Assembly (NCBI GenBank): GCA_022711715.1
Contig: JAKLEC010000003.1
Span: 1,256-65,255 of the forward strand
Source: Acidobacteriota bacterium
Lineage (GTDB): Bacteria > Acidobacteriota > Aminicenantia > UBA2199
DNA length: 64,000 nt
Reading direction: 5' to 3'
The notes beneath the pieces were generated by a model. It ran no database searches, was not told where the DNA came from, and saw only the letters and a list, made by a program, of their open reading frames with translations. The first letter of the stretch is position 1. Each line of letters begins with the position of its first letter. Position numbers and translations under genes: made by a program. Below are positions 289 through 64,000 of this stretch, in pieces.

Positions 289-519
289 AAGCGAGCTCCC
301 GTGACGCGTAACGCGTGACGCGTGACGCGAAACAACCAGTCGCGAGCCAGGACGAGGGGCGATTATTCTAGGCGATCAACTTCCGCTGAGGAACGCCATC
401 GCAAAAACGAAAACACGAACCATATAGGGGTTCAAAAACTGATTATATTGCGTAATGGTTCATTTCATTGCGGCACCATGTCACGCGTTACGCGTCACGC
501 GTCACGATAGCCCGTTCCG
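289..519. repeat. Inverted heptamer-array hairpin element, copy 1 (GTRACGC class)
   Basis: Left arm 301-329 is GTGACGC GTAACGC GTGACGC GTGACGC G. Right arm 480-506 is the complementary heptamers. 300-326 pairs with 480-506 at 25 of 27 positions. The loop is about 150 nt. The element fills the convergent pckA/tsaD gap. Confidence 0.85.
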
Positions 520-1617: not shown

Positions 1618-1800
1618 ATTCGAGCTATCGTGACGCGTAACGCGTGACGCGTGACGCGTAAAGCCATTACCGGAAGCCACAACGAACAAATTACAAAAAG
1701 AGTACTTTTTATAACTTTCCCAGAAAGCAATCCTTGAAGGCTTCAGTTTCGGCTGATGCTCGCTGCTCGTCACGCGTCACGCGTTACGCGTCACGAAGGC
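1618..1800. repeat. Inverted heptamer-array hairpin element, copy 2 (GTRACGC class)
   Basis: 1629-1655 (CGTGACGCGTAACGCGTGACGCGTGAC) is the exact reverse complement of 1769-1795, giving a perfect 27-bp stem. The loop is about 110 nt and AT-richer. Confidence 0.9.
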
Positions 1801-4790: not shown

Positions 4791-6320
4791 TCAGCCCTCG
4801 GCCTGGAATCCGGCGAAGTCGATGTTGTGCTCATCCAGGGTGGTGCCCAGTACCTTGCCCACCCGCGAGAGGGACAGGCTGTAGTCGATCAGCGACTTCA
4901 GCTCGGCGATGCGGGCGTTGGCGAAGTCGCGCTGGTACTGCAGGACCTGGTAGTTGGTCGAGAGGCCGACGGCCAGCTTTTTCTGCTCGGCGGCCAGCTT
5001 CTGTTCGGCCAGCTCGCGCGAGATCCGCGTGGCTTCGACGAGCTTGGCGTTGGTCTCCAGGTCCATGATGATCTGCTTGACCTCGGAATAGACGGTGCTC
5101 TCGGTCTTTTTCAGCGTCAGCAGCGACTGCTCCAGGTTCAGCCGCGCCTGGGCCAGGTCGGCGCGGGCCGAGGCGTTGACTACGGGGACGGAGAGCTGCA
5201 GGCCGAGCGAATAGTTCTCGTACAGGCGCTTCAGCGCGTCGCGCAGCGCGTCGCTCATGCCGCCCCCGACCACGCCGGGGATAGGGATGCCGTTCTTCAG
5301 GGGCATGCCGCTCAGGCCCTGGGTGTAGTAGGACGCCGTCAGCTGCAGGTCAGGCAGGGTCTGGTTGCGGTAGTAGCGCACGTCGATGTTCCTGCTCTTG
5401 AGGTCGAGGCGCACCTGCTCGATGTCGGGCCGCTTGGCCAGGGCCTTCTCGAGGAATTCGTTGAAGTCGGCCTGCCGGGGCCGGAATAGCGGCTGGTCGG
5501 CGGGGACGATCGTCTCCGGCGCCTGGCTGGTGTTCAGGATGCGGCGCAGGTTTTCCTCGTAGGCCTGGATCTGGCTGCGCGCCTGCAGCACCTCGCCCTC
5601 GCGGGCGGCGACCTCGGCCTGGGCGGTGAGGATGTCCATGGGCGCCGAGACGCCGACCCGGACCTGGGTCTCGTTCTGCTTCAGCAGGTCCTTGGCCAGC
5701 TGCAGCGACTTCTCCTTGACCTCCAGGTTCTGGTGGGAATAGACCAGGTTCCAGTAGGCCTCCTCGGTCTGGTAGATGAGATCGATCACCTGCTGGCGCA
5801 GGGTGGCCAGCGACTTGTCCTGGTTGTGGCGGGCGAGGATGATGCTCCGGCGGGTGGCGGTCAGCCCGAAGTTTTTGAGCAGGGGCTGGGACAGGGTGAA
5901 CTGCAGCTGGGAGAAGTAGCGGGGATTGATGTACACGTCGAGCGAGTTGGTCGAGTAGCGGGAGTTCTGCAGCGCGACGTCGAGGCTGCCGCCGATCGGC
6001 AGCTGCTGCTTCAGGCTGAAGCCGTAGGAGACCGACTCGGGCTTCTCGACATCGACGCCGGTGACGATGGAAGCGTTGGGCGTCGTCTGCGACGTCTTGC
6101 GGAAGCTGAACCCCACGCTGGGGATAAAGACGGCCCGGCTCTTGCGCAGCAGCGCCTTGGCGATCTCGGGATTGGCCATCTCGATCTGCAGGTCGAGGTT
6201 GTTCTTCAGGGCCTGGTTGATGACCTCCTCGAGGCTCAGGGACTTGACCGGCCGCTCCTGCGCCGGGCCCAGCAGGGCCAAGAGATGGGCCAGCACGACC
6301 ATCGCGATCATTTTCTTCAT
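4791..6320 (-). CDS. TolC-family outer membrane efflux protein
   Basis: Signal peptide MKKMIAMVVLAHLLALLGPAQE, two repeated OEP halves and coiled-coil-rich sequence. Start chosen at the ATG at 6320, which has an upstream GGAGG. Confidence 0.85.
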   Translation of the reverse strand: MKKMIAMVVLAHLLALLGPAQERPVKSLSLEEVINQALKNNLDLQIEMANPEIAKALLRKSRAVFIPSVGFSFRKTSQTTPNASIVTGVDVEKPESVSYGFSLKQQLPIGGSLDVALQNSRYSTNSLDVYINPRYFSQLQFTLSQPLLKNFGLTATRRSIILARHNQDKSLATLRQQVIDLIYQTEEAYWNLVYSHQNLEVKEKSLQLAKDLLKQNETQVRVGVSAPMDILTAQAEVAAREGEVLQARSQIQAYEENLRRILNTSQAPETIVPADQPLFRPRQADFNEFLEKALAKRPDIEQVRLDLKSRNIDVRYYRNQTLPDLQLTASYYTQGLSGMPLKNGIPIPGVVGGGMSDALRDALKRLYENYSLGLQLSVPVVNASARADLAQARLNLEQSLLTLKKTESTVYSEVKQIIMDLETNAKLVEATRISRELAEQKLAAEQKKLAVGLSTNYQVLQYQRDFANARIAELKSLIDYSLSLSRVGKVLGTTLDEHNIDFAGFQAEG

Positions 6321-7471: not shown

Positions 7472-7480
7472 GATGAACCG

Positions 7481-7730
7481 AACTATCGTGACGCGTAACG
7501 CGTGACGCGTGACGAGTAACAGCAATGAAACGATACGGCGTTCAATCGCCGATGACCAACCGTGCTTCCCCGGACGATCAAGCAAGCGGCAGCAGAAAAC
7601 TATGATAAATTGAATGTCCCTGGTTCAATCGGAGCGGAAAAGTCCAATTCGCCGGCTCGGCTTTCCCGTACGCCCTATGCCGTACGCCAAGCTCCTTTCT
7701 TATTACCCGCGCGTTACGCGTCACGATTGC
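7481..7730. repeat. Inverted heptamer-array hairpin element, copy 3 (GTRACGC class)
   Basis: 7485-7502 (ATCGTGACGCGTAACGCG) is the exact reverse complement of 7710-7727. The left array continues to about 7520. The loop of about 190 nt contains CGTACGC CCTATGC CGTACGC heptamers at 7667-7687. Confidence 0.85.
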
Positions 7731-8053
7731 TCATCCTTCAACAAAGCTATGAGCTTGCGATACCCGGGATCGGCCTGCACAATCTCGATCCCCAGCCCCA
7801 CCGGCGCCTCCTCCCCCTGGACATCCGGCTTCTGTCTTTTCCACACCACCAGGCCGGTGACGGAGTAGATGTCGTCGCCCGAGGCAAGGAGGATCCGCAG
7901 CCGGCTGCGCCGGCGGATGACCCGGGTGGTGGCGACGCACATCCCGCGGCGCGAAATGTTCACCGTCACCCCCATCTGGTCCAGGCCGCGGCGGCTGATG
8001 TCGACCAGCAGGCTTTTCCTGACCCTTGGCTCCTTGCGTTTCCTTGTTTTCAT
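7721..8053 (-). CDS. PilZ domain protein (putative c-di-GMP receptor)
   Basis: 110 aa with RxxxR-like RVRKS and D/NxSxxG-like DISRRG / NISRRGMCV motifs. Confidence 0.75.
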   Translation of the reverse strand: MKTRKRKEPRVRKSLLVDISRRGLDQMGVTVNISRRGMCVATTRVIRRRSRLRILLASGDDIYSVTGLVVWKRQKPDVQGEEAPVGLGIEIVQADPGYRKLIALLKDEQS

Positions 8054-14569: not shown

Positions 14570-16108
14570 TCAGGATCCGCCGGGAGCAGCATCCCCGCCA
14601 GTCAACCGGGCGGACGGTTGCGTCTTGCCCTGCAGCCTGACCATGGGGCCCGCGTTCGTGGCGCTATAGACCCGCCCGAGTTCCCGCACATGGTAATACG
14701 GCTCATAACGGTCGGATAAATAGAGGGGGCGGCAATGGATATACTTCTCGATGATCTCGGTCATGTCCCGGACCGGGTCTGGCGACGCGTGGACGATGGA
14801 ATCGATGAATTGGGGTATGGTGATGTCGGGACGCCCGCCATATATCTTCTGGCCATAGATCAAGGCCATGCCGGGGTTGAAATCCGTGATAATGACGGCA
14901 TTCTTCTCCGCCCTGGCGAAGGCATCCTGGACATATTTCCGGGCGCTGTATTCCCATCTTTTGTCCGGCCTGAAGAAATATTCAACCGAATCCCGGTAGG
15001 GCAGCTGGCGAATATGGATCAGTTTCAAGCCAGAATGCTTGTAGATCGAAGGAAAGGCGTAATAGGTGAAAAAGGGGACCGTAACCATGGACAAATACAA
15101 AAGATTCTTGAAGAATTTCTTGGGCTGGATTTTTTCTTCCAGCAGGGAGCGGTCCAATCCGAACATGACCCATATGCCGAAAACCAGATAAGAAGGGATA
15201 AGCAGGGCGAACTGCCTTTGCAGGAAATAGGTGAACGCGAAGAAGCTGTTGAGCAGGAAAAAGAAAAAAAGCGAGAGACTGAGGATCCGATCCCTCCGCA
15301 TGAGTTTTCCCAGCCCCAGCAGTCCGGCCAGAATGGCAAAAGACGGGAATTGGTAGATCAAATAGAAGGGGAATTTCGCCATTTCCCTGATGGTTTTCTT
15401 GACCTCAAAGAAAGTAGCAAAAACGCCGGATGTCTCTGAAAAGACAGCCCGGCTGAAATCGCTGAACCCCATGCTGAGGAGCGGGATCAGGAACATCGGG
15501 GAGATGCCGATCAGAAAACAAAGAGGGGCGAGCAATGCCATTCTCAACCGGAAACGAGTGCCCAGAAAACATAGCATTGCCGTCGTCGGCAGAAGCAAGA
15601 AGGACGCCGTGTGGTTGTACAAGGCCAGCCCGGAAAAAAAGAAGGCCGAACAAAAGCAGGCCAACCGCTTCGTGTTTCGGAATTTCACGGCTGAAAGCAG
15701 GATCAGGACGGTGAAAAATGCATTCAGCGAATACGTTTCGTTGATGAGCGAATAGAGCCAGAACGAATGGGTGATGGCAAGCAGCAGGCAACCCAGCAAG
15801 CTTGCTTTGGGCGGGAGGCCCAGTTCTCTCAGCAGGTGAAACAATGCCAGGAGGGCGGCGGCGGCAAAAAAGGCCGACATCAGGTTCTGGGTATAGGCCA
15901 GTTCAAAGGGAAGCTTCGCGAACAGGATGCCCAACAAGGTATGGAGCGGATGATAGCCGTGGCCATAGCCGGCAAAATCGCGCTCCTGGACAAAAATGGC
16001 CAATTTGGCGCTGTCGGACCAGAGCATCGTGGGGGCCAGGGTGCCGAGATACAGGCCGAATGGGACAAAAAACGAAAGGATTGAGTACAACGGCTTTGCG
16101 GATTTCAT
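14570..16108 (-). CDS. DUF2723/TMEM260-like polytopic membrane protein (putative GT-C glycosyltransferase)
   Basis: MKSAKPLYSILSFFVPFGLYLGTLAPTMLWSDSAKLAIF... followed by many TM segments. Start at 16108. The track ORF to 16516 runs through the tRNA-Arg gene on the opposite strand. Confidence 0.55.
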   Translation of the reverse strand: MKSAKPLYSILSFFVPFGLYLGTLAPTMLWSDSAKLAIFVQERDFAGYGHGYHPLHTLLGILFAKLPFELAYTQNLMSAFFAAAALLALFHLLRELGLPPKASLLGCLLLAITHSFWLYSLINETYSLNAFFTVLILLSAVKFRNTKRLACFCSAFFFSGLALYNHTASFLLLPTTAMLCFLGTRFRLRMALLAPLCFLIGISPMFLIPLLSMGFSDFSRAVFSETSGVFATFFEVKKTIREMAKFPFYLIYQFPSFAILAGLLGLGKLMRRDRILSLSLFFFFLLNSFFAFTYFLQRQFALLIPSYLVFGIWVMFGLDRSLLEEKIQPKKFFKNLLYLSMVTVPFFTYYAFPSIYKHSGLKLIHIRQLPYRDSVEYFFRPDKRWEYSARKYVQDAFARAEKNAVIITDFNPGMALIYGQKIYGGRPDITIPQFIDSIVHASPDPVRDMTEIIEKYIHCRPLYLSDRYEPYYHVRELGRVYSATNAGPMVRLQGKTQPSARLTGGDAAPGGS

Positions 16109-16228
16109 CGCGGAAATGATAAGGGAAAGCGCATTCGTTTTCAATGACGGCGCGGTGGGGGCGCTTTGTTCTTTCCTGTGGAACGGGGCGCGGCGATCGG
16201 AAACGGCCGGATACAGAGCGGCCCCGCC

Positions 16229-16270: not shown

Positions 16271-16343
16271 GCGCCCGTAGCTCAAAGGATAGAGCGGCAG
16301 CCTTCGAAGCTGTGCGTTGGGAGTTCGAGTCTCTCCGGGCGTA
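16271..16343 (+). tRNA. tRNA-Arg (anticodon TCG)
   Basis: Acceptor GCGCCCG/CGGGCGT, D-arm GCTC-AAAGGATA-GAGC, anticodon arm GCAGC-CTTCGAA-GCTGT, T-arm GGGAG-TTCGAGT-CTCTC. CCA is not encoded. Confidence 0.9.
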
Positions 16344-16759: not shown

Positions 16760-16781
16760 TACCGTCTACCGGTTCGATTAA

Positions 16782-16975
16782 AACGAGCATTCGTGACGCG
16801 TGACGCGTGACACGTGACAAGTAGCCGCAATCATGGATCTTCTGGATCTGGCATTGCGGATTTCATTTGCATATGGAAATGATCAATTCTGGTTCTTGCC
16901 TGGCACAGAAAAGGCCTCTCTCGTGCAGTTACTCGTTACGCGTCACGCGTAACGCGTCACGATAGGTCGTTTCGA
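16782..16975. repeat. Inverted heptamer-array hairpin element, copy 4 (GTRACGC class, degenerate)
   Basis: Left arm 16793-16822 is GTGACGC GTGACGC GTGACAC GTGACAA GT. Right arm 16935-16965 is GTTACGC GTCACGC GTAACGC GTCACGATAG. The outer flanks AACGAGCAT... and ...GATAGGTCGTT are shared with the other copies. Confidence 0.8.
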
Positions 16976-32832: not shown

Positions 32833-34105
32833 AATGAAATTTGTGATTCGCGTCGCCGGCCTGGGCAAGAAATACCTCATCCGCCACCAGTCGCGGCCGC
32901 GCTACGAAACGCTGCGCGACACGCTGGCCCACGGTGCCCGGCGGCTGCTGCGAAAAAACGCCGCACCCTGCAGGGAGGACTTCTGGGCCCTGCGCGATGT
33001 TACTATTGAGGTGAAGCCAGGCGACAAGCTCGGCATCATCGGCCGCAACGGCGCCGGCAAGACCACGCTGCTAAAGATCCTCAGCCGCATCACCGAGCCC
33101 AGCGCCGGCCGGGCAGAGATCCGCGGCCGCGTGGCCAGCCTGCTTGAGGTGGGCACCGGCTTCCACCCTGAGTTGACCGGCCGGGAGAACATCTTTCTCA
33201 ACGGGGCGATCCTGGGCATGCGCCGCCACGAGATCGCGCGCAAGTTCGACGAGATCGTGACCTTCGCCGAAGTGGAAAAATTCCTCGACACGCCGGTCAA
33301 GCGCTATTCCTCGGGTATGTACGTGCGCCTGGCCTTCGCCGTAGCGGCCCACCTGGAACCGGAAATATTGATCATCGACGAGGTTCTGGCTGTGGGCGAC
33401 GCCCAGTTCCAGAAAAAGTGCCTGGGAAAGATGGGTGACGTGACGAAAGAAGGCCGGACAGTGCTGTTCGTCAGTCATAATTTGGGGGCCATCGAAACAC
33501 TTTGCGATGCGGCCATCCTTCTCGATCGTGGAAGACTGCAACAGGTCGGCGAGACGCATCAAGTGATCGCCGCCTATCTATCGACATTCGACGACGGGAC
33601 AATCGGCGATCTGCGTACGCGAACGGACCGCAGCGGTTCTGGAAAAGCGAGAATCACGGCCATCGGCATGAAGGGAGAGGGTGGGGAAGCGCTGCAACAA
33701 GTATTGTCCGGACAAGATTGCACAGTTACGATCGACTTCCACTCGTCGATTGAACTCGTCAGGCCAACGTTCAGGTTTACAATCTACAACAGCATGGGAC
33801 AGCCGCTCCTTCATTTCAACAGCTCACTCGGCGAAAAGCCCTTGACCGGCCTTTCGCGCAGCGGGTGCGCTGGCTGCCGTATCAACAAGCTCCCGCTGGC
33901 GAAAGGCAACTATCGTCTGAATGCGTCACTGGAGGACAGCGGGCTACTGCTGGACCATGTGAACGGAGCGTATTCTTTCGCAGTTGATGAAGGAAACTTC
34001 TATGGCGCCGGTCGCAATGTCATCGACTTAAAGGAGATCTGCTTGGCCGAGCAGGAATGGCTGCCTGTCGAGCCCAGACAACCCGCGGTGAAAAGTGAAA
34101 ACTAA
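32822..34105 (+). CDS. wzt: Polysaccharide export ABC ATPase (Wzt/TagH-like) with an extra C-terminal domain
   Basis: GRNGAGKTTLLK, YSSGMYVRLAFA and ILIIDEVLAVGD motifs. The ~170-aa C-terminal extension is like a Wzt carbohydrate-binding domain. Confidence 0.9.
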   Translation: MLSEMKFVIRVAGLGKKYLIRHQSRPRYETLRDTLAHGARRLLRKNAAPCREDFWALRDVTIEVKPGDKLGIIGRNGAGKTTLLKILSRITEPSAGRAEIRGRVASLLEVGTGFHPELTGRENIFLNGAILGMRRHEIARKFDEIVTFAEVEKFLDTPVKRYSSGMYVRLAFAVAAHLEPEILIIDEVLAVGDAQFQKKCLGKMGDVTKEGRTVLFVSHNLGAIETLCDAAILLDRGRLQQVGETHQVIAAYLSTFDDGTIGDLRTRTDRSGSGKARITAIGMKGEGGEALQQVLSGQDCTVTIDFHSSIELVRPTFRFTIYNSMGQPLLHFNSSLGEKPLTGLSRSGCAGCRINKLPLAKGNYRLNASLEDSGLLLDHVNGAYSFAVDEGNFYGAGRNVIDLKEICLAEQEWLPVEPRQPAVKSEN

Positions 34106-34940
34106 ATCGCATCCCATACTCCACGCCGCGGCCAACAGTCTCGCCAAGAGGTATTTTTACAAATTCCTGCGCACGTTCCTCATTCCGATCGATTATACGA
34201 GGACCAAGGAAATTCCGGCCATGCTGGACTTGAGCGGTTTGCTGGAATGTCAGGAGCGGAAGCTGAAAATCCTGGATATCGGCTCGCCTCAGATATTATC
34301 TCTTTCATTGGGAAAGTACTCTGCTGCGTGGGAAATCACCTATGTAAATTCCTGGGAGCCAGAGCTGGAAGACATGCGGCAAAAAGCCTCGGCCCTTGGG
34401 CTTAGCCAGATGCAGATCATCCATGCCGATATAACCCGTTTTGACACCGTCTCCGGGTTGGGAACGTTCGACTTTATTTTTTCCTGCTCGGTATTCGAAC
34501 ATATTCACCCTGAGGATGGAGGCGATTCGCTGGCAGCAAAGATCGTCCCGCGCTTGCTGAATCCCTCTGGCGTTTTTACTTTTTCTGTCCCTTTTTATAC
34601 AGAAAAATTCAATGAATACATGCCCGGGGACGTATATGGCATGAAGGGCACACTTCTGAACAAAACGTTCTTTCAGCGCTTCTATGATGAAAAATCCCTG
34701 AAGGATCAGATCATAACGCCAACCGGTCTGCGCGTCAGCGGGAAAACGTATGTCGGTGAAAGATACTATGCGGTAAATAATATAAAAAAGAGGATGTCGC
34801 TTCTCGTTGGTCTCGGGAAACGCGCATTCATCATGGGGAGATCATTCAATGCGCTATCCACTGTGTTCATGGAAGAATCGCGCGATTACAAAAAATTGAA
34901 GAAGCCATATCTAGCCATCATTGCCATGATAAAGGATTAA
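34095..34940 (+). CDS. Class I SAM-dependent methyltransferase-like protein
   Basis: KILDIGSP...FDFIFSCSVFEHI...LNPSGVF. The gene is visibly AT-richer than its neighbours. Confidence 0.6.
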   Translation: MKTKSHPILHAAANSLAKRYFYKFLRTFLIPIDYTRTKEIPAMLDLSGLLECQERKLKILDIGSPQILSLSLGKYSAAWEITYVNSWEPELEDMRQKASALGLSQMQIIHADITRFDTVSGLGTFDFIFSCSVFEHIHPEDGGDSLAAKIVPRLLNPSGVFTFSVPFYTEKFNEYMPGDVYGMKGTLLNKTFFQRFYDEKSLKDQIITPTGLRVSGKTYVGERYYAVNNIKKRMSLLVGLGKRAFIMGRSFNALSTVFMEESRDYKKLKKPYLAIIAMIKD

Positions 34941-34952
34941 TTCTCTGACTAT

Positions 34953-36086
34953 GTGACTATGAAAAGAATAGGATTGATCACAACCTTGAACACCAATATC
35001 GGCGATGACTTCATCCGCGAAGGCATCTGTCTGTTGCTGCGAGAACAATTCAGGGGAGAAGAAATCGAGTTCATTCCGGTCAACAAACATAGACCTCTCT
35101 CGGCCTACCCGAAATGGCATCCCATTCAGCTCAGCAAAGCAGCTCACATTTTACCAAGAGGTAGAAAACGCTTAAGTCGTTTTCTAGAAACCTTCGCAGC
35201 AAAGCTAAAATCAAGCCGTTTCGATAATTGTGACCTGATCGTTCAATGTGGGACCCCTGTTTTTTCGCCTAGCTGCAGTCATACCGAGTGGGTGAAGCCC
35301 ATTTGGGAGGGAATCATCGGCCGACTCCACGAGCAGATCCCGGTTTTTAACCTGGCGGCAGGTTCATGCTATCCTTGGGAGAGACAACCCGTAAAAATTG
35401 ACTCTCCTGAAGACGAAAAGTATTTAAGGGCGATACTCAGCTATTGCCGGCTGACCACTGTCCGCGACCGACTTTCACAAAAACTGTGCAAAACGCTTGG
35501 CGCCGATTTGCCATTGATCCCCTGCAGCGCACTCTTGGTGGGCAAGGGAAGAAAAGTGCAGGGCTCTCCCTCTAGCTATATTTTATTCAACTACATGAGG
35601 GGCGGTGGACATTACACATGGGAGCAGGGAATCGATGAACAAAAATGGGAAAACTCAGTGAAAACGCTCATTGCCCGACTTTCTAAAAGACACAAGGTGG
35701 CTTTCCTGTGCCATGACGAAAAAGAGTATTCTCTGGCCAAAAGACTTGATCCCAGGCTGCCCGCCTTTTTCCCGAAGTCGCCCCGAGATTATCTTGAATG
35801 CGCTTCTGAAGCCAAGTTTGCCGTTTGCAATCGGATGCATGCATCAATCGCCATGGCTGGAATAGGCATACCTTCAATAGCTGTATGTACCGATACACGG
35901 ATGTTAATGGTGTCACAGATAGGACTTGCTACTCACTATGTCAAGGATGTGAATGCAGATGACTTGGAAGATGAGACCGAAAATGGCATCCAATCAGTCC
36001 GATCCGAGCAGGATAGGCTTCTTGTCATCCAATCAGAAACATGGGCAAGCTACACTTCAATTATCAAAGAAACACTTCATCCCTGA
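34953..36086 (+). CDS. Polysaccharide pyruvyl transferase family protein
   Basis: N-terminal IGLITTLNTNIGDDFIREG resembles the PS_pyruv_trans signature. AT-richer gene. Confidence 0.6.
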   Translation: MTMKRIGLITTLNTNIGDDFIREGICLLLREQFRGEEIEFIPVNKHRPLSAYPKWHPIQLSKAAHILPRGRKRLSRFLETFAAKLKSSRFDNCDLIVQCGTPVFSPSCSHTEWVKPIWEGIIGRLHEQIPVFNLAAGSCYPWERQPVKIDSPEDEKYLRAILSYCRLTTVRDRLSQKLCKTLGADLPLIPCSALLVGKGRKVQGSPSSYILFNYMRGGGHYTWEQGIDEQKWENSVKTLIARLSKRHKVAFLCHDEKEYSLAKRLDPRLPAFFPKSPRDYLECASEAKFAVCNRMHASIAMAGIGIPSIAVCTDTRMLMVSQIGLATHYVKDVNADDLEDETENGIQSVRSEQDRLLVIQSETWASYTSIIKETLHP

Positions 36087-37141
36087 TGAATTGCATTTCG
36101 ATTTGGCAAAGAGCAAAGAAATATTGGAACCGCTTCAGGCATCGCCTGATTCTCAAGTTGTCGTTTCGGATCAACGGCGCCTTACTTTGCCGACACCTGA
36201 AGCGGGCAGGCGTCCGCACTGATCATCGGCGAGTGATCGTCATCAGTCAGGTTGAGCATCTGGGTGATATCGTGGCCTGCGAACCGGTAGTGCGCGAGAT
36301 GCGCCGGCAATGGCCAGGAGCATTCATCGTATTTGCCCTCCGCCCTGAATACAGAGAACTGATGGATGTGCATCCAGATGTTGACTATGTATTGCCAGTA
36401 ACCTGCGTCTCAGAATGGGCCCGCTATACTGTTTCTGATATTTTCAACCAAGTCATTGACTTGAATATCGAGGATCGCAAGTGTAGGATCTGTTGCGAAT
36501 CTTGGTATAAGCGGATTGGTAACCACGGCGTCACCTTTAGTAATTATTTAAATCTGGGCAGCCTGATGGAGAGTTTCTGCCGGTCAGCCGGAATAACCCC
36601 ACCAAACGGGGGGCCGAAAATTTATCAGGATAAAAACAATGTGACGATTATCAACAATTTTCGGCTTCCCAATTCGTTCGTCGTTATCCATACTAATAGC
36701 AATATGCCCAACAAATCTCTTCCATCGAATATGTGGCAACAGATATTCTCCTACATCACCAGGCGTTGGGACTTGCCAATCGTCGAAATTGGACTCGAGA
36801 CAGGAATACTCATGTCAAATGAAACGAGAAACCGCTGTCTGTGTGGACAGTTATCAATATTACAATCTGCAGAAGTAATCCGCCGAAGTGTTCTTTTTTT
36901 AGGTGTAGACAGCGGACCTGCGCATCTGGCTAACGCGGTTGGAGCATATGGGATAATTATTCTGGGGCATTATCAACATTTTCGGCGATATATACCTTAT
37001 TCCGGAGACTACGCCCATGGGATCCGCAGCGAGCTTCTCCATCACGATGGTCCAATAGCCGAAATTCCCATCACACGAATCTTTGAGGCCATTGACCGCC
37101 GCCTGTCCGCAGTAATGATTCCCGGCTTGAAGTTATCGTGA
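36086..37141 (+). CDS. Glycosyltransferase family 9 (heptosyltransferase-like)
   Basis: ...HLGDIVACEPVVREM... and ...GVDSGPAHLANAVGAYGIIILG. ATGA overlap with the upstream gene. AT-richer gene. Confidence 0.7.
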   Translation: MNCISIWQRAKKYWNRFRHRLILKLSFRINGALLCRHLKRAGVRTDHRRVIVISQVEHLGDIVACEPVVREMRRQWPGAFIVFALRPEYRELMDVHPDVDYVLPVTCVSEWARYTVSDIFNQVIDLNIEDRKCRICCESWYKRIGNHGVTFSNYLNLGSLMESFCRSAGITPPNGGPKIYQDKNNVTIINNFRLPNSFVVIHTNSNMPNKSLPSNMWQQIFSYITRRWDLPIVEIGLETGILMSNETRNRCLCGQLSILQSAEVIRRSVLFLGVDSGPAHLANAVGAYGIIILGHYQHFRRYIPYSGDYAHGIRSELLHHDGPIAEIPITRIFEAIDRRLSAVMIPGLKLS

Positions 37142-37156
37142 CCGTTGGGAGTTCAC

Positions 37157-54171: not shown

Positions 54172-54714
54172 ATGAGCCTAAAAGGATCGTTGAGTTCGAT
54201 CAACCTGGCGGACATCATCCAGCTGGTCTCCAACTCCAAGCAGACCGGCCGCTTCGTACTCTCGCGCAGCAGCGGCCAGAAGGGGGCGATCTACCTCAAG
54301 AACGGCGAGATCGTCCACGCCGAGGTCGATGAATACAAGGGCGAGGACGCCATCTTCACCGTCATCTCCTGGGACGACGGCGAGTTCGTCTTCGAGGAGG
54401 GGGCGTTCGACACGGCGGGCACCAGCGTCATCCGCCCCATCACCTCGCTGCTGATGGAGGCGGCGCGGCGCATCGACGAATGGAAGCTGCTGCGCAAGAA
54501 GATCGGCTCGATCAACGCCATCCCCGAGTTCAGCGACATCGACCGCCAGGAGCGGCGCAAGATCTCGCTGTCCACCATGGAATGGGTGATCATCGCCAAG
54601 ATCGACGGCAAGAAGAGCATCGACCAGATCTCGCGCGAGTGCGGCGTCAACATCTACGACACCTCGCGCATCATCTACGGGATGGTCACCTCCGATTTGA
54701 TCAAGCTGAAATAG
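54172..54714 (+). CDS. DUF4388 (PATAN-like) domain protein
   Basis: MSLKGSLSSINLADIIQLVSNSKQTGRFVL...GAIYLKNGEIVHA... is typical of DUF4388. Confidence 0.65.
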   Translation: MSLKGSLSSINLADIIQLVSNSKQTGRFVLSRSSGQKGAIYLKNGEIVHAEVDEYKGEDAIFTVISWDDGEFVFEEGAFDTAGTSVIRPITSLLMEAARRIDEWKLLRKKIGSINAIPEFSDIDRQERRKISLSTMEWVIIAKIDGKKSIDQISRECGVNIYDTSRIIYGMVTSDLIKLK

Positions 54715-54895
54715 CCAAGAAATTTTTGTGATAGTGGTAGTGATAGTGGTAGTAACAGCAATAAAAAGCTTTAATTAGAATCTGGCGAAAGTATCTTCAC
54801 TTTTACCTTTTTACTTTTACCTTTTACCTTTGGCTTCAGTTGTCATTACAGGGCTTGCCACTACCACTACCACTATCACTACCACTTAGAATTCA
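54715..54895. repeat. Inverted hexamer-array hairpin element, copy 1 (GTGRTA class)
   Basis: Left arm 54728-54757 is GTGATA GTGGTA GTGATA GTGGTA GTAACA. Right arm 54858-54887 is CCACTA CCACTA CCACTA TCACTA CCACTT. 54734-54753 is the exact reverse complement of 54866-54885 (20 bp). The interior holds a (C)TTTTAC(C) tandem tract at 54795-54833. Confidence 0.85.
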
Positions 54896-54908
54896 CTGCG
54901 ATCCCTAG

Positions 54909-55280
54909 CTACTCGATGACCACCAGGGCGACGGCCATGCCGCGCGTGTGCGACAGCGAGAGCAGGGCGCGCTTGAGGCGGCGGCGGCGGAACCGGCGCA
55001 GGGCGGCGGCGGCCAGGCGCAGCTGCGGCTTGCCTAGCTTGTCGTTCTCCACCTCCACGTCCTGCCAGCTCATGCCACCGCGGAAGCCCGTCCCCAGGGC
55101 CTTGAAGAATGCCTCCTTGGCGGTGAAGCGGGCGGCGTAGTGCTGGGCGCGGGAAAACTTGCCCTCGCAGTAGGCGATCTCGCGCGGGGTGAAGACGCGC
55201 GCGGCGAAGCCGCTGTCGCTCTCGATCAGCCGCCGCACGCGCTCGATCTCCACCATGTCCACGCCGACTCCCTTGATCAT
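54909..55280 (-). CDS. acpS: Holo-[acyl-carrier-protein] synthase
   Basis: MIKGVGVDMVEIERV...FTAKEAFFKALGTG... Confidence 0.92.
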   Translation of the reverse strand: MIKGVGVDMVEIERVRRLIESDSGFAARVFTPREIAYCEGKFSRAQHYAARFTAKEAFFKALGTGFRGGMSWQDVEVENDKLGKPQLRLAAAALRRFRRRRLKRALLSLSHTRGMAVALVVIE

Positions 55281-57802: not shown

Positions 57803-58246
57803 TTATTTCTTGATCAGGAAAAAGCCCAGCAGCCATTCTCCAGGGGCATTGACGCGCACGCGGAAGAATTCATCCCCGGAGGTCAGCTTCCGGCTCACCT
57901 GGAAGCCGCCGCCGCCGCGATGGGGCATGGCGATGGCCAGTTCCTCGAACAGCGGCTCGCGGCGCTCGTCCTGCACCACAAAGGAGCGCTGCCCGTCCTT
58001 CTCGGTCAGCACCAGCCAGTAGTTCCCCGCCGGGAACTCCTTTCCGGCGTGGACGAAGGCCATGGGGATGCGCACGCGCTGGAGGTCGCGGCCCGGGGCC
58101 GGCGGCGGCTCCACGGCCTGCTGCGGCGCCGGCTGCGCCTGCTCGTCGGGCAGGACCGGGACCTGCTCCGGCTCCTGTTCCTGGGCCGCAAGCAGCAGGG
58201 AGAACAGGATCAGAACGGCGAAAACGATCGATCTCTTCATGGGCAT
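57803..58246 (-). CDS. Secreted hypothetical protein
   Basis: Signal peptide (MKRSIVFAVLILFSLLLAAQ) and a Pro/Gln-rich linker. No domain recognised. Confidence 0.45.
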   Translation of the reverse strand: MPMKRSIVFAVLILFSLLLAAQEQEPEQVPVLPDEQAQPAPQQAVEPPPAPGRDLQRVRIPMAFVHAGKEFPAGNYWLVLTEKDGQRSFVVQDERREPLFEELAIAMPHRGGGGFQVSRKLTSGDEFFRVRVNAPGEWLLGFFLIKK

Positions 58247-58440
58247 CTCTCCTCGCGAATATTATAGGAAAGCGGGGAATTCCCTGTCAAGTCGCGGCTG
58301 GGCAATAAAAAAGAAACTCGCACCCGGTGTCAGCATCGGTGTTGGTGACAGCAACAGCGATCAGCAAGCACTTATTGGAATCCTGGCAGATAGCCCTTCA
58401 CTTTTTCCTTTTACCTTGTTAGCGCCTTTGTGAGGAGAGC

Positions 58441-58472
58441 AAAAAAAAGGGCCAGGTCGCGGGACCTGGCCC
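58441..58472 (-). terminator. Rho-independent terminator
   Basis: The minus strand reads GGGCCAGGTC-CCGC-GACCTGGCCC, a 10-bp perfect stem, followed by T8. It lies 26 nt downstream of the stop at 58499. Confidence 0.8.
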
Positions 58473-63911: not shown

Positions 63912-64000
63912 GTGATAGTGGTAGTGATAATGGTAGTTAAACACACTCGACCGATTTCTTTATGCTTTAAAGACCAAAATAAGTGCGGCTCTTTTTACAA
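63912..64000. repeat. Inverted hexamer-array element, copy 2 (GTGRTA class), truncated by the window end
   Basis: 63912-63941 is GTGATA GTGGTA GTGATA ATGGTA GTTAAA. It is preceded by AGAAATTT, as in the 54.7-kb copy. The partner arm would lie beyond base 64000. Confidence 0.6.

What the first reader, a model, noticed from the sequence alone, without database searches (positions are those of the whole stretch)
54715..54895. Second element class: hairpin with arms built from GTGATA/GTGGTA hexamers and an internal (C)TTTTAC(C) tandem tract
The convergent gap between the DUF4388 gene and acpS is filled by an element with the same design as the heptamer family but a different unit. The left arm is GTGATA GTGGTA GTGATA GTGGTA GTAACA (54728-54757). 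The right arm is CCACTA x3 TCACTA CCACTT (54858-54887). There is a perfect 20-bp pairing register between 54734-54753 and 54866-54885. The loop contains another short-unit tandem tract (CACTTTTACC TTTTTAC TTTTACC TTTTACC, 54795-54833). Part of it (CTTCACTTTTTCCTTTTACCTT) recurs at 58394-58420. Arms made of different oligomers, combined with shared layout, shared junction motif and shared genomic niche, suggest a mechanism that generates or tolerates arm-unit turnover. I have not seen this described.
Basis: seen in the sequence. Interest (0 to 1): 0.72.

Follow-up and report, generated by a model that had tools for sequence, protein, structure and literature searches.

The report
Foldback repeat with tandem-hexamer arms
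The hairpin between the DUF4388 gene and acpS is real: it is a recently inserted, non-coding copy of a large and apparently undescribed family of intergenic repeats in Candidatus Aminicenantes, built from short arrays of 6-8-base units, resembling the heptamer (STRR) repeats of cyanobacteria, with no demonstrated function.

Summary
The element, X1 (54715-54908), fills the convergent gap between the DUF4388 gene and acpS. It has five GTGATA/GTGGTA-type hexamers in each arm, a perfect 21-bp pairing register, a ~100-nt loop and a CTTTTAC x4.6 tract.

The genome is a Candidatus Aminicenantes MAG. In about 600 kb of DNA from this clade I found more than 100 non-coding arrays of 6-8-nt units. There are many unit classes, each array has about 4.3 units, and each has a polar GCA(A/G) junction. 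Arrays often form inverted pairs with the G-rich arm 5'.

Copies share only ~35-50-nt arm modules, or composites of up to ~150 nt.

X1 is a lineage-specific insertion. In relatives, the same gap is empty in about 25 loci or holds one of four other inserts: a GTGTTA-armed hairpin, an AAATTCC/TCGTGAT composite, a 177-nt MITE-like element, or a foreign gene.

Unit number varies between strains in other arrays (4 vs 2 heptamers; 4/4 vs 3/3 hexamers) but not in X1's arms.

There is no Rfam match, no ORF, no transposase and no target-site duplication.

Best reading: a non-autonomous foldback/mosaic dispersed repeat (STRR, REP-BIME or MITE-like). It turns over by replacement of modules or whole elements plus slippage, not by in-place change of the arm unit. 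I rate it a new variant of a known kind.

The parts
54715..54727 (.). X1 outer flank, left (CCAAGAAATTTTT). It is part of the extended inverted repeat. Five of the seven differences from the 1.3%-diverged strain fall in 54717-54731.
54728..54757 (+). X1 left arm: five hexamers, GTGATA GTGGTA GTGATA GTGGTA GTAACA (G/purine-rich strand).
54752..54762 (+). Inner junction GTAACAGCAAT. It is identical in the heptamer element at 7480-7732 and invariant in the L127 orthologue.
54763..54794 (.). Unique, A+T-rich part of the loop. It evolves fast: about 55% identity to L127.
54795..54832 (-). CTTCA + (CTTTTAC)4.6 module. On the - strand it reads as a GGTAAAAG-type array followed by TGAAG. The same module occurs in other Aminicenantes MAGs. 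L127 has 3 units where the window has 4.
54846..54858 (.). Right inner junction TTACAGGGCTTGC, invariant between the window and L127.
54858..54887 (-). X1 right arm: CCACTA x3, TCACTA, CCACTT. It is the complement of the hexamer array.
54888..54908 (.). X1 outer flank, right (TAGAATTCACTGCGATCCCTAG), up to the acpS stop codon.
58327..58417 (+). Decayed paralogue of X1's left two-thirds: a GTGTCA/GTGACA-like arm, the junction GCAACAGCGAT, GGAATCCTGGC, and CTTCACTTTTTCCTTTTACC. It has no right arm. It is absent from relatives.
63912..64000 (+). X2, the second hexamer-armed hairpin, cut by the window end. The complete element (about 250 nt) is seen in L135-L138. Its far arm begins inside the stop codon of cstA.
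292..514 (.). Heptamer-armed element H1 (CGTGACG/CGTAACG arms) in a convergent gap.
1621..1800 (.). Heptamer-armed element H2, with perfect 29-bp arms.
7480..7732 (.). Heptamer-armed element H3. The loop holds a GCCGTAC-type array. Strain L144 lacks exactly two units (14 nt) of the arm.
16781..16972 (.). Heptamer-armed element H4, with 49-nt arms at 82% complementarity.

Best explanation
X1 is a non-coding, non-autonomous foldback element. It belongs to a lineage-wide superfamily of intergenic mosaic repeats in Candidatus Aminicenantes.

The building block is a polar module of about 35-50 nt. It consists of a short outer flank, about four tandem units of 6-8 nt, and an inner junction (GTARCNGCAAT, GCAGGAG or GCAAGA). 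Two modules in inverted orientation, with the G-rich strand 5' on both strands, make the hairpin. Further modules, here the CTTTTAC tract, can sit in the loop.

Elements or modules are copied into permissive intergenic gaps, and whatever copies them is not encoded nearby. The arrays then change by replication slippage, which gains or loses whole units. They also show clustered substitutions that look like conversion. The unique loop sequence drifts at or above the neutral rate.

Any effect on the host is probably a by-product: a long stem-loop at the 3' ends of both convergent transcripts.

Shown: the anatomy, the family and its grammar, the lineage-specific presence, the unit-number polymorphism, and the lack of coding or known RNA signals. 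Inferred: mobility in trans, slippage and conversion as the mechanisms, and the neutral or selfish status.
For: **Family**
- The 18-nt degenerate arm pattern pulled out about 18 loci from Aminicenantes or Acidobacteria MAGs among 120 hits. Their gaps are full of arrays of many classes.
- NCBI names for the window's own proteins say Candidatus Aminicenantes.

**Census**
- In 274 kb, 101 of 110 arrays are non-coding, although only 19% of the DNA is non-coding.
- The median is 4.3, 4.4 and 4.1 copies for periods 6, 7 and 8.
- The junction GCA[AG] is polar: 40/112 against 0/112.
- Inverted pairs put the G-rich arm first in 12 cases and the C-rich arm first in 2. This is 11:2 without the X1 orthologue.

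**Unit of homology**
- BLAST between copies covers the arms with about 10 nt of flank, and the CTTTTAC module. It does not cover the loops.
- Composites of 70-150 nt recur at different loci and in different MAGs.
- The relic at 58.3 kb is collinear with X1's arm, junction, loop and tract.

**Insertion**
- The gap measures 194 nt in the window and in L121/L280, and 178 nt in L127.
- It measures 9-43 nt, with unrelated sequence, in about 25 relatives at 75-95% protein identity.
- Four other inserts occupy the same gap in other relatives.

**Slippage**
- H3 has 4 units in the window and 2 in L144.
- L131 has 4/4 units in its two arms and L132 has 3/3.
- A TCGTGAT-type array has 2.5, 3.5 or 4.5 units in three relatives.
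- The CTTTTRC tract has 4 units in the window and 3 in L127.

**Clustered change**
- Five of the 80 differences in 6.4 kb lie in 15 nt of X1's left arm.
- Five of 11 substitutions, plus the indel, lie within 75 nt of H3's arm.

**No constraint on the loop**
- X1 is 70% identical between the window and L127. Third codon positions of the two flanking genes are 88% and 76% identical.

**Multi-copy**
- Short-read assemblies break inside the element.
Against: - No transposase, recombinase or reverse transcriptase lies near any element.
- tblastn with remembered Y1-transposase sequences against about 600 kb found nothing. This is weak evidence.
- No target-site duplication is visible, and no filled/empty pair with alignable flanks exists for an array-armed element.
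- Loops are unrelated between most copies. This does not fit simple copy-and-paste of whole MITEs.
- The near-constant number of about 4 units, the polar junction and the G-first rule are not predicted by a purely selfish or neutral model. They hint at a constraint that I cannot name.
- X2 and the 58.3-kb relic are almost unchanged between the two strains that differ by 1.3%. Hypermutability is therefore not general.
- I had only about 600 kb of the clade, chosen partly because it contained arrays.
Confidence: 0.5

Rival explanations
1. The element is kept for the host's benefit. It forms a long stem-loop in the 3' untranslated parts of both convergent mRNAs and acts as a barrier to 3' exonucleases, as a transcription insulator or terminator, or as an RNase III processing site. 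REP elements and cyanobacterial STRR hairpins have been proposed to work this way.
For: - X1 starts directly after the DUF4388 stop codon (its extended inverted repeat begins 5 nt after it) and ends 21 nt before the acpS stop, and it fills the gap.
- X2 and H3 overlap stop codons.
- Both strands fold very stably.
- The stem is kept in three orthologues, with 7 one-sided changes that preserve pairing.
- The arms are 26-34 bp, the size of double-stranded RNase III substrates. This last point rests on my own knowledge.
- STRR hairpins have been suggested to affect transcript stability or termination (PMC2670836).
Against: - No U-tract follows the stem, and the terminator scan finds nothing.
- The organism has ordinary intrinsic terminators, for example at 58441-58470.
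- About 25 relatives do without any element in this gap.
- Arrays also sit in divergent, promoter-only gaps: 5 of 25 such gaps, against 10 of 31 convergent ones.
- None of the 41 predicted pairs shows a compensatory double change.
- The 106-nt loop is unlike known terminators.
Confidence: 0.2
2. There is no mobility. The arrays arise in place by polymerase slippage on chance seeds, and the inverted copies arise by template switching. This would be the same mutational bias proposed for the excess of heptamer repeats in some bacteria.
For: - Whole-unit gains and losses between strains.
- A symmetric 4/4 versus 3/3 change in the two arms of one element.
- Heptamer repeats are known to be over-represented in intergenic DNA of some bacteria, and slippage is the proposed cause (PMC4692102).
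- No transposase was found.
Against: - The same arm sequence, with the same variant unit in the same place (CGTGACG CGTAACG CGTGACG CGTGACG plus flanks), recurs in H1, H2, H3 and in another MAG.
- Composites of up to 150 nt with non-repetitive linkers recur at unrelated loci and in different MAGs.
- Copy number is tightly about 4 and not long-tailed.
- None of the ancestral gap sequence is recognisable inside the filled gaps.
Confidence: 0.15
3. The arrays are binding sites for an oligomeric DNA- or RNA-binding protein. Ribbon-helix-helix proteins bind heptad arrays, and TRAP or HutP bind spaced triplets in RNA. On this view, X1 would be a regulatory or nucleoid-organising site.
For: - About four units in every array, whatever the unit length.
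- A strict polarity and a conserved junction.
- Most classes share a GTGA core.
Against: - There are at least 15 unit classes with different sequences and three different periods. These would need many proteins or recognition that does not depend on sequence.
- There is no consistent position relative to promoters or start codons.
- The elements are present or absent among close relatives without any change in the neighbouring genes.
Confidence: 0.08
4. X1 is a gene for a structured small RNA or a small protein.
For: A promoter-like pair (GTAACA, 18 nt, TAGAAT) lies at 54752-54781. The fold is stable.
Against: - No Rfam family reaches threshold in the window or, at relaxed E-value, in the element.
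- The loop diverges faster than synonymous sites.
- Read from its first GTG, the left-arm array is open for only 16 codons (MIVVVIVVVTAIKSFN), with no ribosome-binding site. Heptamer arrays are out of frame and contain stop codons. Both points are read directly from the sequence.
Confidence: 0.04

Closest known systems
STRR (short tandemly repeated repetitive) sequences of heterocystous cyanobacteria
   Same: Both are tandem arrays of a few copies of a roughly 7-nt unit, with several families per genome. Both are confined to intergenic DNA, often form hairpins (for example between hupS and hupL), and have no known function (PMC2670836; Calothrix heptamers are cited in PMC4692102).
   Different: - The phylum and the unit sequences differ.
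- Here hexamers, heptamers and octamers share one grammar: about 4 units, a polar GCAR junction, and the G-rich arm 5'.
- Here the arms are separated by 40-200-nt loops.
- Here modules are chained into composites.

I know of none of these features being reported for STRR.
Heptamer repeats of Xanthomonas (GGGAATC), Nostoc (GGGGAYT) and Beggiatoaceae (TAACTGA)
   Same: All are intergenic heptamer arrays. They vary in length and sequence between close relatives and occasionally occur as inverted pairs. Slippage has been invoked to explain them (PMC4692102, PMC4679880).
   Different: Those have one dominant unit per genome. The first two are G-quadruplex-prone, and TAACTGA is usually placed just upstream of start codons. 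Here there are many unit classes, no G-runs and no fixed relation to start codons.
REP / BIME / REPIN elements with their RAYT (Y1) transposases
   Same: Both have modules of about 35 nt that occur singly, as inverted pairs, or in mosaic clusters with variable linkers. Both are restricted to intergenic DNA, often lie after convergent genes, and are mobilised in trans (PMC3333891, PMC3116915).
   Different: - A REP is itself an imperfect palindrome with a 5' GTAG. The modules here are tandem arrays, and the hexamer ones are not palindromic.
- REPIN spacers are short and conserved.
- No RAYT was found in the DNA available.
MITEs, and eukaryotic Foldback elements
   Same: All have terminal inverted repeats, are non-coding, measure 150-300 nt and show presence/absence polymorphism. 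From my own knowledge, Drosophila Foldback elements have inverted arms made of short tandem repeats and variable loops.
   Different: No target-site duplication is seen here, and the interior is not conserved between copies. Foldback elements are eukaryotic and much larger.
Neisserial intergenic mosaic elements (NIME / dRS3)
   Same: Both have short conserved inverted repeats bracketing variable 50-150-nt segments in intergenic mosaics. This rests on my own knowledge.
   Different: dRS3 is a single 20-bp repeat that serves as a phage integration target. It is not a set of tandem-unit arrays.

Membership tests
STRR-type intergenic tandem oligomer repeats | Tandem array of a short unit (about 7 nt) with a few copies | tested here: met
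   The hexamer arms have 4.3 and 4.8 copies and the heptamer tract has 4.6 copies. The family median is 4.1-4.4 copies.
STRR-type intergenic tandem oligomer repeats | Dispersed in many copies and restricted to non-coding DNA | tested here: met
   101 of 110 arrays are non-coding. Copies occur in more than 15 MAG loci.
STRR-type intergenic tandem oligomer repeats | Cyanobacterial origin and the STRR1-3 unit sequences | tested here: not met
   The organism is Candidatus Aminicenantes. The units are GTGRTA, CGTGACG, CTTTTAC and others. It is an analogue, not a member.
REP/BIME (RAYT-mobilised) | Each repeat is a 20-40-nt imperfect palindrome with a conserved 5' GT[AG]G | tested here: not met
   The hexamer arm is not self-complementary. 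Pairing needs the partner arm about 105 nt away.
REP/BIME (RAYT-mobilised) | A RAYT / Y1 transposase gene in the genome, flanked by the repeats | tested here: inconclusive
   Pfam found none in the window ORFs tested. tblastn with remembered queries found none in about 600 kb. The whole genome was not available.
MITE | Terminal inverted repeats | tested here: met
   35-nt arms at 80% complementarity, with a perfect 21-nt core.
MITE | Target-site duplication | tested here: not met
   No direct repeat flanks X1 or H1-H4, as read. The flanks of the empty sites cannot be aligned.
MITE | Copies homologous over their whole length | tested here: not met
   Homology is limited to the arms and the CTTTTAC module. 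The one exception is the partial paralogue at 58.3 kb.
Intrinsic (Rho-independent) terminator | Short G+C-rich stem with a 3-8-nt loop, followed by a U-tract | tested here: not met
   The scan found no terminator-like sites in 54500-55100. The loop is 106 nt and there is no T-run.
Any curated RNA family (Rfam 15) | Covariance-model match at the gathering score | tested here: not met
   The window yields only two tRNAs. The best hits in the element have E = 0.12 and 0.25, far below the gathering scores.
Phase-variable simple sequence repeat (contingency locus) | Repeat inside a coding region or promoter spacer, so that unit number switches expression | tested here: not met
   X1 lies downstream of both genes. 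Its hexamer arms have five units in the window, L121 and L127. Unit number does vary in other arrays.

The most novel reading that the evidence does not exclude
The arm modules are not ordinary selfish repeats. They would be the products or substrates of a dedicated, still unidentified machinery that installs about four copies of a short unit next to a fixed junction, always with the same polarity. Candidates are a repeat-synthesising polymerase or reverse transcriptase, or a structure-specific recombinase that targets hairpins. Alternatively, the arms are RNase III processing stems that release fast-evolving loop RNAs. Either reading would explain the constant unit number across 6-, 7- and 8-nt classes, the shared junction, the G-first rule and the repeated hits on one gap.
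Probability: 0.12. Interest if true: 0.85.

Novelty: new variant of a known kind. Interest (0 to 1): 0.55.

Why it matters
Aminicenantes are abundant and uncultured, and I found nothing published on their repeats.

- **Practical consequence.** If the family is as dense as in this window (about one element per 10 kb), it shapes intergenic DNA and breaks short-read assemblies. It would also offer strain-typing markers.
- **Mechanistic question.** The common grammar is shared by arrays of different unit sequence and length. One convergent gap holds at least five different inserts among close relatives. Together these give a tractable case for asking how such repeats arise and spread. For the cyanobacterial STRR heptamers, the papers I read still describe the function as unknown and the repeats as uncharacterised (PMC2670836, PMC4692102).

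Tried and rejected
- **First genome scan.** The degenerate pattern was too loose.
- **Viral contigs.** Eight heptamer hits and more than 119 hexamer hits were unrelated contexts, with no hairpin partners.
- **Promoter in the loop.** There is one weak match, 9 of 12 positions. It would drive antisense to acpS and is not conserved in L127.
- **Small ORF.** The hexamer array reads as a 16-codon Val/Ile-rich frame. It has no ribosome-binding site, and the heptamer classes are out of frame.
- **CsrA-type GGA sites.** The GCAGGAG junctions could be such sites, but X1 has none, and many junctions read GCAAGA instead.
- **Rho loading.** The G-poor tract and right arm could load Rho. This is possible on the + strand only and could not be tested.
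- **Target-site duplications.** None were found.
- **Y1 transposases.** None were found.
- **Covariation.** With only three orthologues there are no double changes.
- **General hypermutability.** Rejected, because X2 and the relic are stable between strains.
- **A script error.** One search used a failed anchor, and timed out. Searches are the valid versions.

Full report
**1. The observation**

- The left arm has five hexamers at 54728-54757, and the right arm has five complementary hexamers at 54858-54887.
- A perfect 21-nt inverted repeat pairs 54733-54753 with 54866-54886. With the flanks it extends to 35 nt at 80% complementarity.
- A period-7 tract, CTTTTAC x4.6, lies at 54800-54831.
- The arm 18-mer with up to 3 mismatches matches 8 times, against 0.01 expected.
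- Either strand folds into one long stem-loop: RNA -53.6 and -60.8 kcal/mol, z about -5.3 and -5.4; DNA -22.9 kcal/mol, z -3.5.
- The piece said to recur lies at 58396-58417. It belongs to a decayed copy that is collinear with X1's arm, junction, part of the loop and tract.
- A second hexamer-armed element begins at 63912 and is cut by the window end.
- Four elements of the same layout, with CGTGACG/CGTAACG heptamer arms, lie at 292-514, 1621-1800, 7480-7732 and 16781-16972.
- All six elements fill gaps that contain at least one gene 3' end, by my own codon-position (GC3-based) gene map and the gene calls for X2.

**2. Whose genome, and is the element known?**

The window matches JGI contig Ga0209507_1000265 and is 98.7% identical to a contig of MAG GCA_016294905.1. 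NCBI names its acpS and DUF4388 proteins 'Candidatus Aminicenantes bacterium'. Rfam finds only two tRNAs in the window and nothing in the element, even at E up to 5. Full-text searches found no paper on repeats in Aminicenantes.

**3. The family**

The genome-collection scan with a degenerate three-hexamer pattern was too permissive. Even so, about 18 of its 120 loci came from Aminicenantes or Acidobacteria MAGs, including one labelled Clostridia that has the same G+C content and the same repeats. In these loci the intergenic DNA is a mosaic of short tandem arrays of many unit classes:
- hexamers: GTGRTA, GTGTTA, GTGWCA;
- heptamers: CGTGACG, CGTGATG, TCGTGAT, AGTGACG, AGTGAAA, AAAGGYA (which is CTTTTRC on the other strand), GGAATTT, CGGTTGA, ACCGTCT, CTAACGT, CAGGGTA, GTTCCAY;
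- octamers: GTTGAAGC, GGGGTAGA.

In 274 kb, 101 of 110 arrays are non-coding, although only 19% of the DNA is non-coding. Arrays are present in 26 of 81 tandem gaps, 10 of 31 convergent gaps and 5 of 25 divergent gaps.

Three regularities hold across the classes.
- Copy number is about 4 whatever the unit length. The medians are 4.3, 4.4 and 4.1 for periods 6, 7 and 8, and only one of 113 arrays exceeds 5.5 copies.
- The G-rich strand of an array is followed by GCA[AG] in 40 of 112 cases, against 0 of 112 on the mirror side and 8.8% background. X1 and H3 share the exact 11-mer GTAACAGCAAT at this position.
- Inverted pairs put the G-rich arm 5' on both strands: 12 pairs against 2, or 11:2 without the X1 orthologue.

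**4. What is actually repeated**

BLAST of the six window elements against all the Aminicenantes DNA in hand shows two kinds of shared segment. One is the arm with about 10 nt on each side. The other is the 38-nt CTTCA-(CTTTTAC)n module. Loops are otherwise unique.

The heptamer arms carry the same variant unit in the same place (CGTGACG CGTAACG CGTGACG CGTGACG) in H1, H2, H3 and in another MAG. They are therefore copies of one module, not local inventions. Larger composites of 70-150 nt, with several arrays in a fixed order and non-repetitive linkers, recur within a contig and between different MAGs. In L103, a ~145-nt composite of three arrays flanks ispD in inverted orientation.

**5. History of this particular gap**

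I collected about 40 orthologous DUF4388|acpS gaps.
- The GTGRTA hairpin is present in the window strain, in the strain that differs by 1.3%, and in diverged form in L127 (94% protein identity).
- About 25 relatives at 75-95% identity have an unrelated gap of 9-43 nt.
- Other relatives carry four other contents:
  - L131-L133: a hairpin with GTGTTA arms and an unrelated ~130-nt loop. Judged by the AACAGCAAT junction, it lies in the opposite orientation.
  - L354, L282, L287: an AAATTCC/TCGTGAT composite. L287 has an internal segment swapped for a different module.
  - L298, L299: a 177-nt MITE-like insert with ~40-nt inverted ends. L300 is the matching empty site.
  - L355: a 1.3-kb low-G+C insert with an SDH-type ClpP-like protease gene.
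- The 58.3-kb relic and X2 are likewise absent from relatives.

X1 is therefore a recent arrival in a gap that is hit again and again. The different arm classes in this gap are different arrivals, not one element whose unit changed.

**6. Micro-evolution**

Unit number does vary between strains.
- H3's arm has four heptamers in the window and exactly two in L144.
- The GTGTTA element has 4/4 units in L131 and 3/3 in L132.
- A TCGTGAT array has 2.5, 3.5 or 4.5 units in three relatives.
- The CTTTTRC tract has 4 units in the window and 3 in L127. In L127 two of the three units read G where the window has A (TTTTACC to TTTTGCC).
- X1's hexamer arms keep five units in all three orthologues.

Substitutions can cluster. 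Five of 80 differences in 6.4 kb lie in 54717-54731. Five of 11 substitutions, plus the indel, lie within 75 nt of H3's arm. In contrast, X2 and the relic are almost identical between the two strains.

Between the window and L127 the element is 70% identical, while third codon positions of the flanking genes are 88% and 76% identical. The arms, both junctions and CTTCACTTTT are conserved, and the unique loop is not. The stem is retained in the three orthologues without any compensatory double change.

**7. How it most likely works**

I commit, at about 0.5, to the following. X1 is a non-autonomous foldback element made of two inverted copies of a polar array module, with a third module in its loop. 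It was copied into a permissive convergent gap by something not encoded nearby. Since then it has been modified by slippage and by conversion-like events, and it has no sequence-specific host function.

Shown: the anatomy, the family grammar, the insertion polymorphism, the unit-number changes, the absence of coding or Rfam signals, and the fast-evolving loop. Inferred: mobility in trans, the mutational mechanisms and neutrality.

Weak points:
- No transposase and no target-site duplication.
- Loops are mostly unrelated between copies.
- Three regularities remain unexplained by a selfish or neutral model: about four units, the polar junction, and the G-first rule.

Rivals:
- A host-selected 3' stem-loop acting as stabiliser, insulator or RNase III site (0.2; not exclusive of the best explanation).
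- Purely local origin by slippage (0.15). The recurrence of identical modules and composites argues against it.
- A protein-binding array (0.08).
- An RNA or peptide gene (0.04).

**8. Comparison with what is known**

The nearest described things are the STRR heptamer arrays of filamentous cyanobacteria. They form intergenic hairpins and have no known function (PMC2670836). Next come the heptamer arrays of Xanthomonas, Nostoc and Beggiatoaceae (PMC4692102, PMC4679880).

In organisation, the elements also resemble REP/BIME/REPIN mosaics (PMC3333891, PMC3116915) and foldback-type MITEs. X1 fails defining tests for REP, for MITE and for intrinsic terminators:
- its modules are not palindromic, as REPs are;
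- it has no target-site duplication or whole-length homology, as MITEs have;
- it lacks the short-loop stem followed by a U-tract that defines intrinsic terminators.

It matches STRR only as an analogue. I therefore class it as a new variant of a known kind, in a phylum where nothing of the sort has been reported.

**9. Verdict**

Interest is 0.55. The family is rich, regular and dynamic enough to deserve a genome-wide study, but no function or mechanism has been demonstrated.

Noticed in passing
L069 about 5290-5320; L103 6517-6544: The same perfect REP-like palindrome, GTAGGGAACGCAAATTTGCGTTCCCTAC (with a 5' GTAG), sits inside array-rich gaps of two different Aminicenantes MAGs. It may be a separate, REP-type repeat family.
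   Followed up: no
L103 6264-6409 and 7693-7857: A ~145-nt composite of three arrays (CGGTTGA, AAATTCC, AGTGTC) flanks the housekeeping gene ispD in inverted orientation. The two copies are 84-90% complementary and 1.28 kb apart.
   Followed up: partly
L298/L299 versus L300 (DUF4388|acpS gap): This is a clean filled/empty pair. A 177-nt insert with ~40-nt imperfect inverted ends (ATTTCTCACARATATT...) lies between ACGCTTTAGC and CCGCTTGCC. GCTTGCC is repeated at the right junction.
   Followed up: partly
L355 (DUF4388|acpS gap, 1317 nt): A low-G+C insert carrying an SDH-type ClpP-like serine protease gene (PF01972) occupies the same gap in one relative.
   Followed up: partly
L124, L125, L126 (contig ends); L133: Independent short-read assemblies stop 107-126 nt past acpS, inside X1's CTTTTAC tract. 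L133 stops inside the arm of its own element. These repeats fragment assemblies.
   Followed up: yes
window 34100-37150: A block of low G+C (0.42-0.50) in a genome of 0.65. It carries a methyltransferase, a polysaccharide pyruvyl transferase and a family 9 glycosyltransferase, and was probably acquired horizontally.
   Followed up: partly
window 14570-16144 (-): A TMEM260-like / PMT_2 glycosyltransferase gene with atypically low third-position G+C lies next to the tRNA at 16271-16343. My GC3-based gene map missed it.
   Followed up: partly
window 58441-58470 (- strand) and 58246-58300: A textbook intrinsic terminator (GGGCCAGGTCCCGCGACCTGGCCC followed by T8) and a consensus promoter (TTGACA, 17 nt, TATAAT) bracket the 58.3-kb relic. 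Both are conserved in relatives that lack the relic.
   Followed up: yes
L089 1415-1589: A ~105-nt unit containing a GTGRTA array and a GTGGCA array is duplicated in tandem at 89% identity.
   Followed up: no
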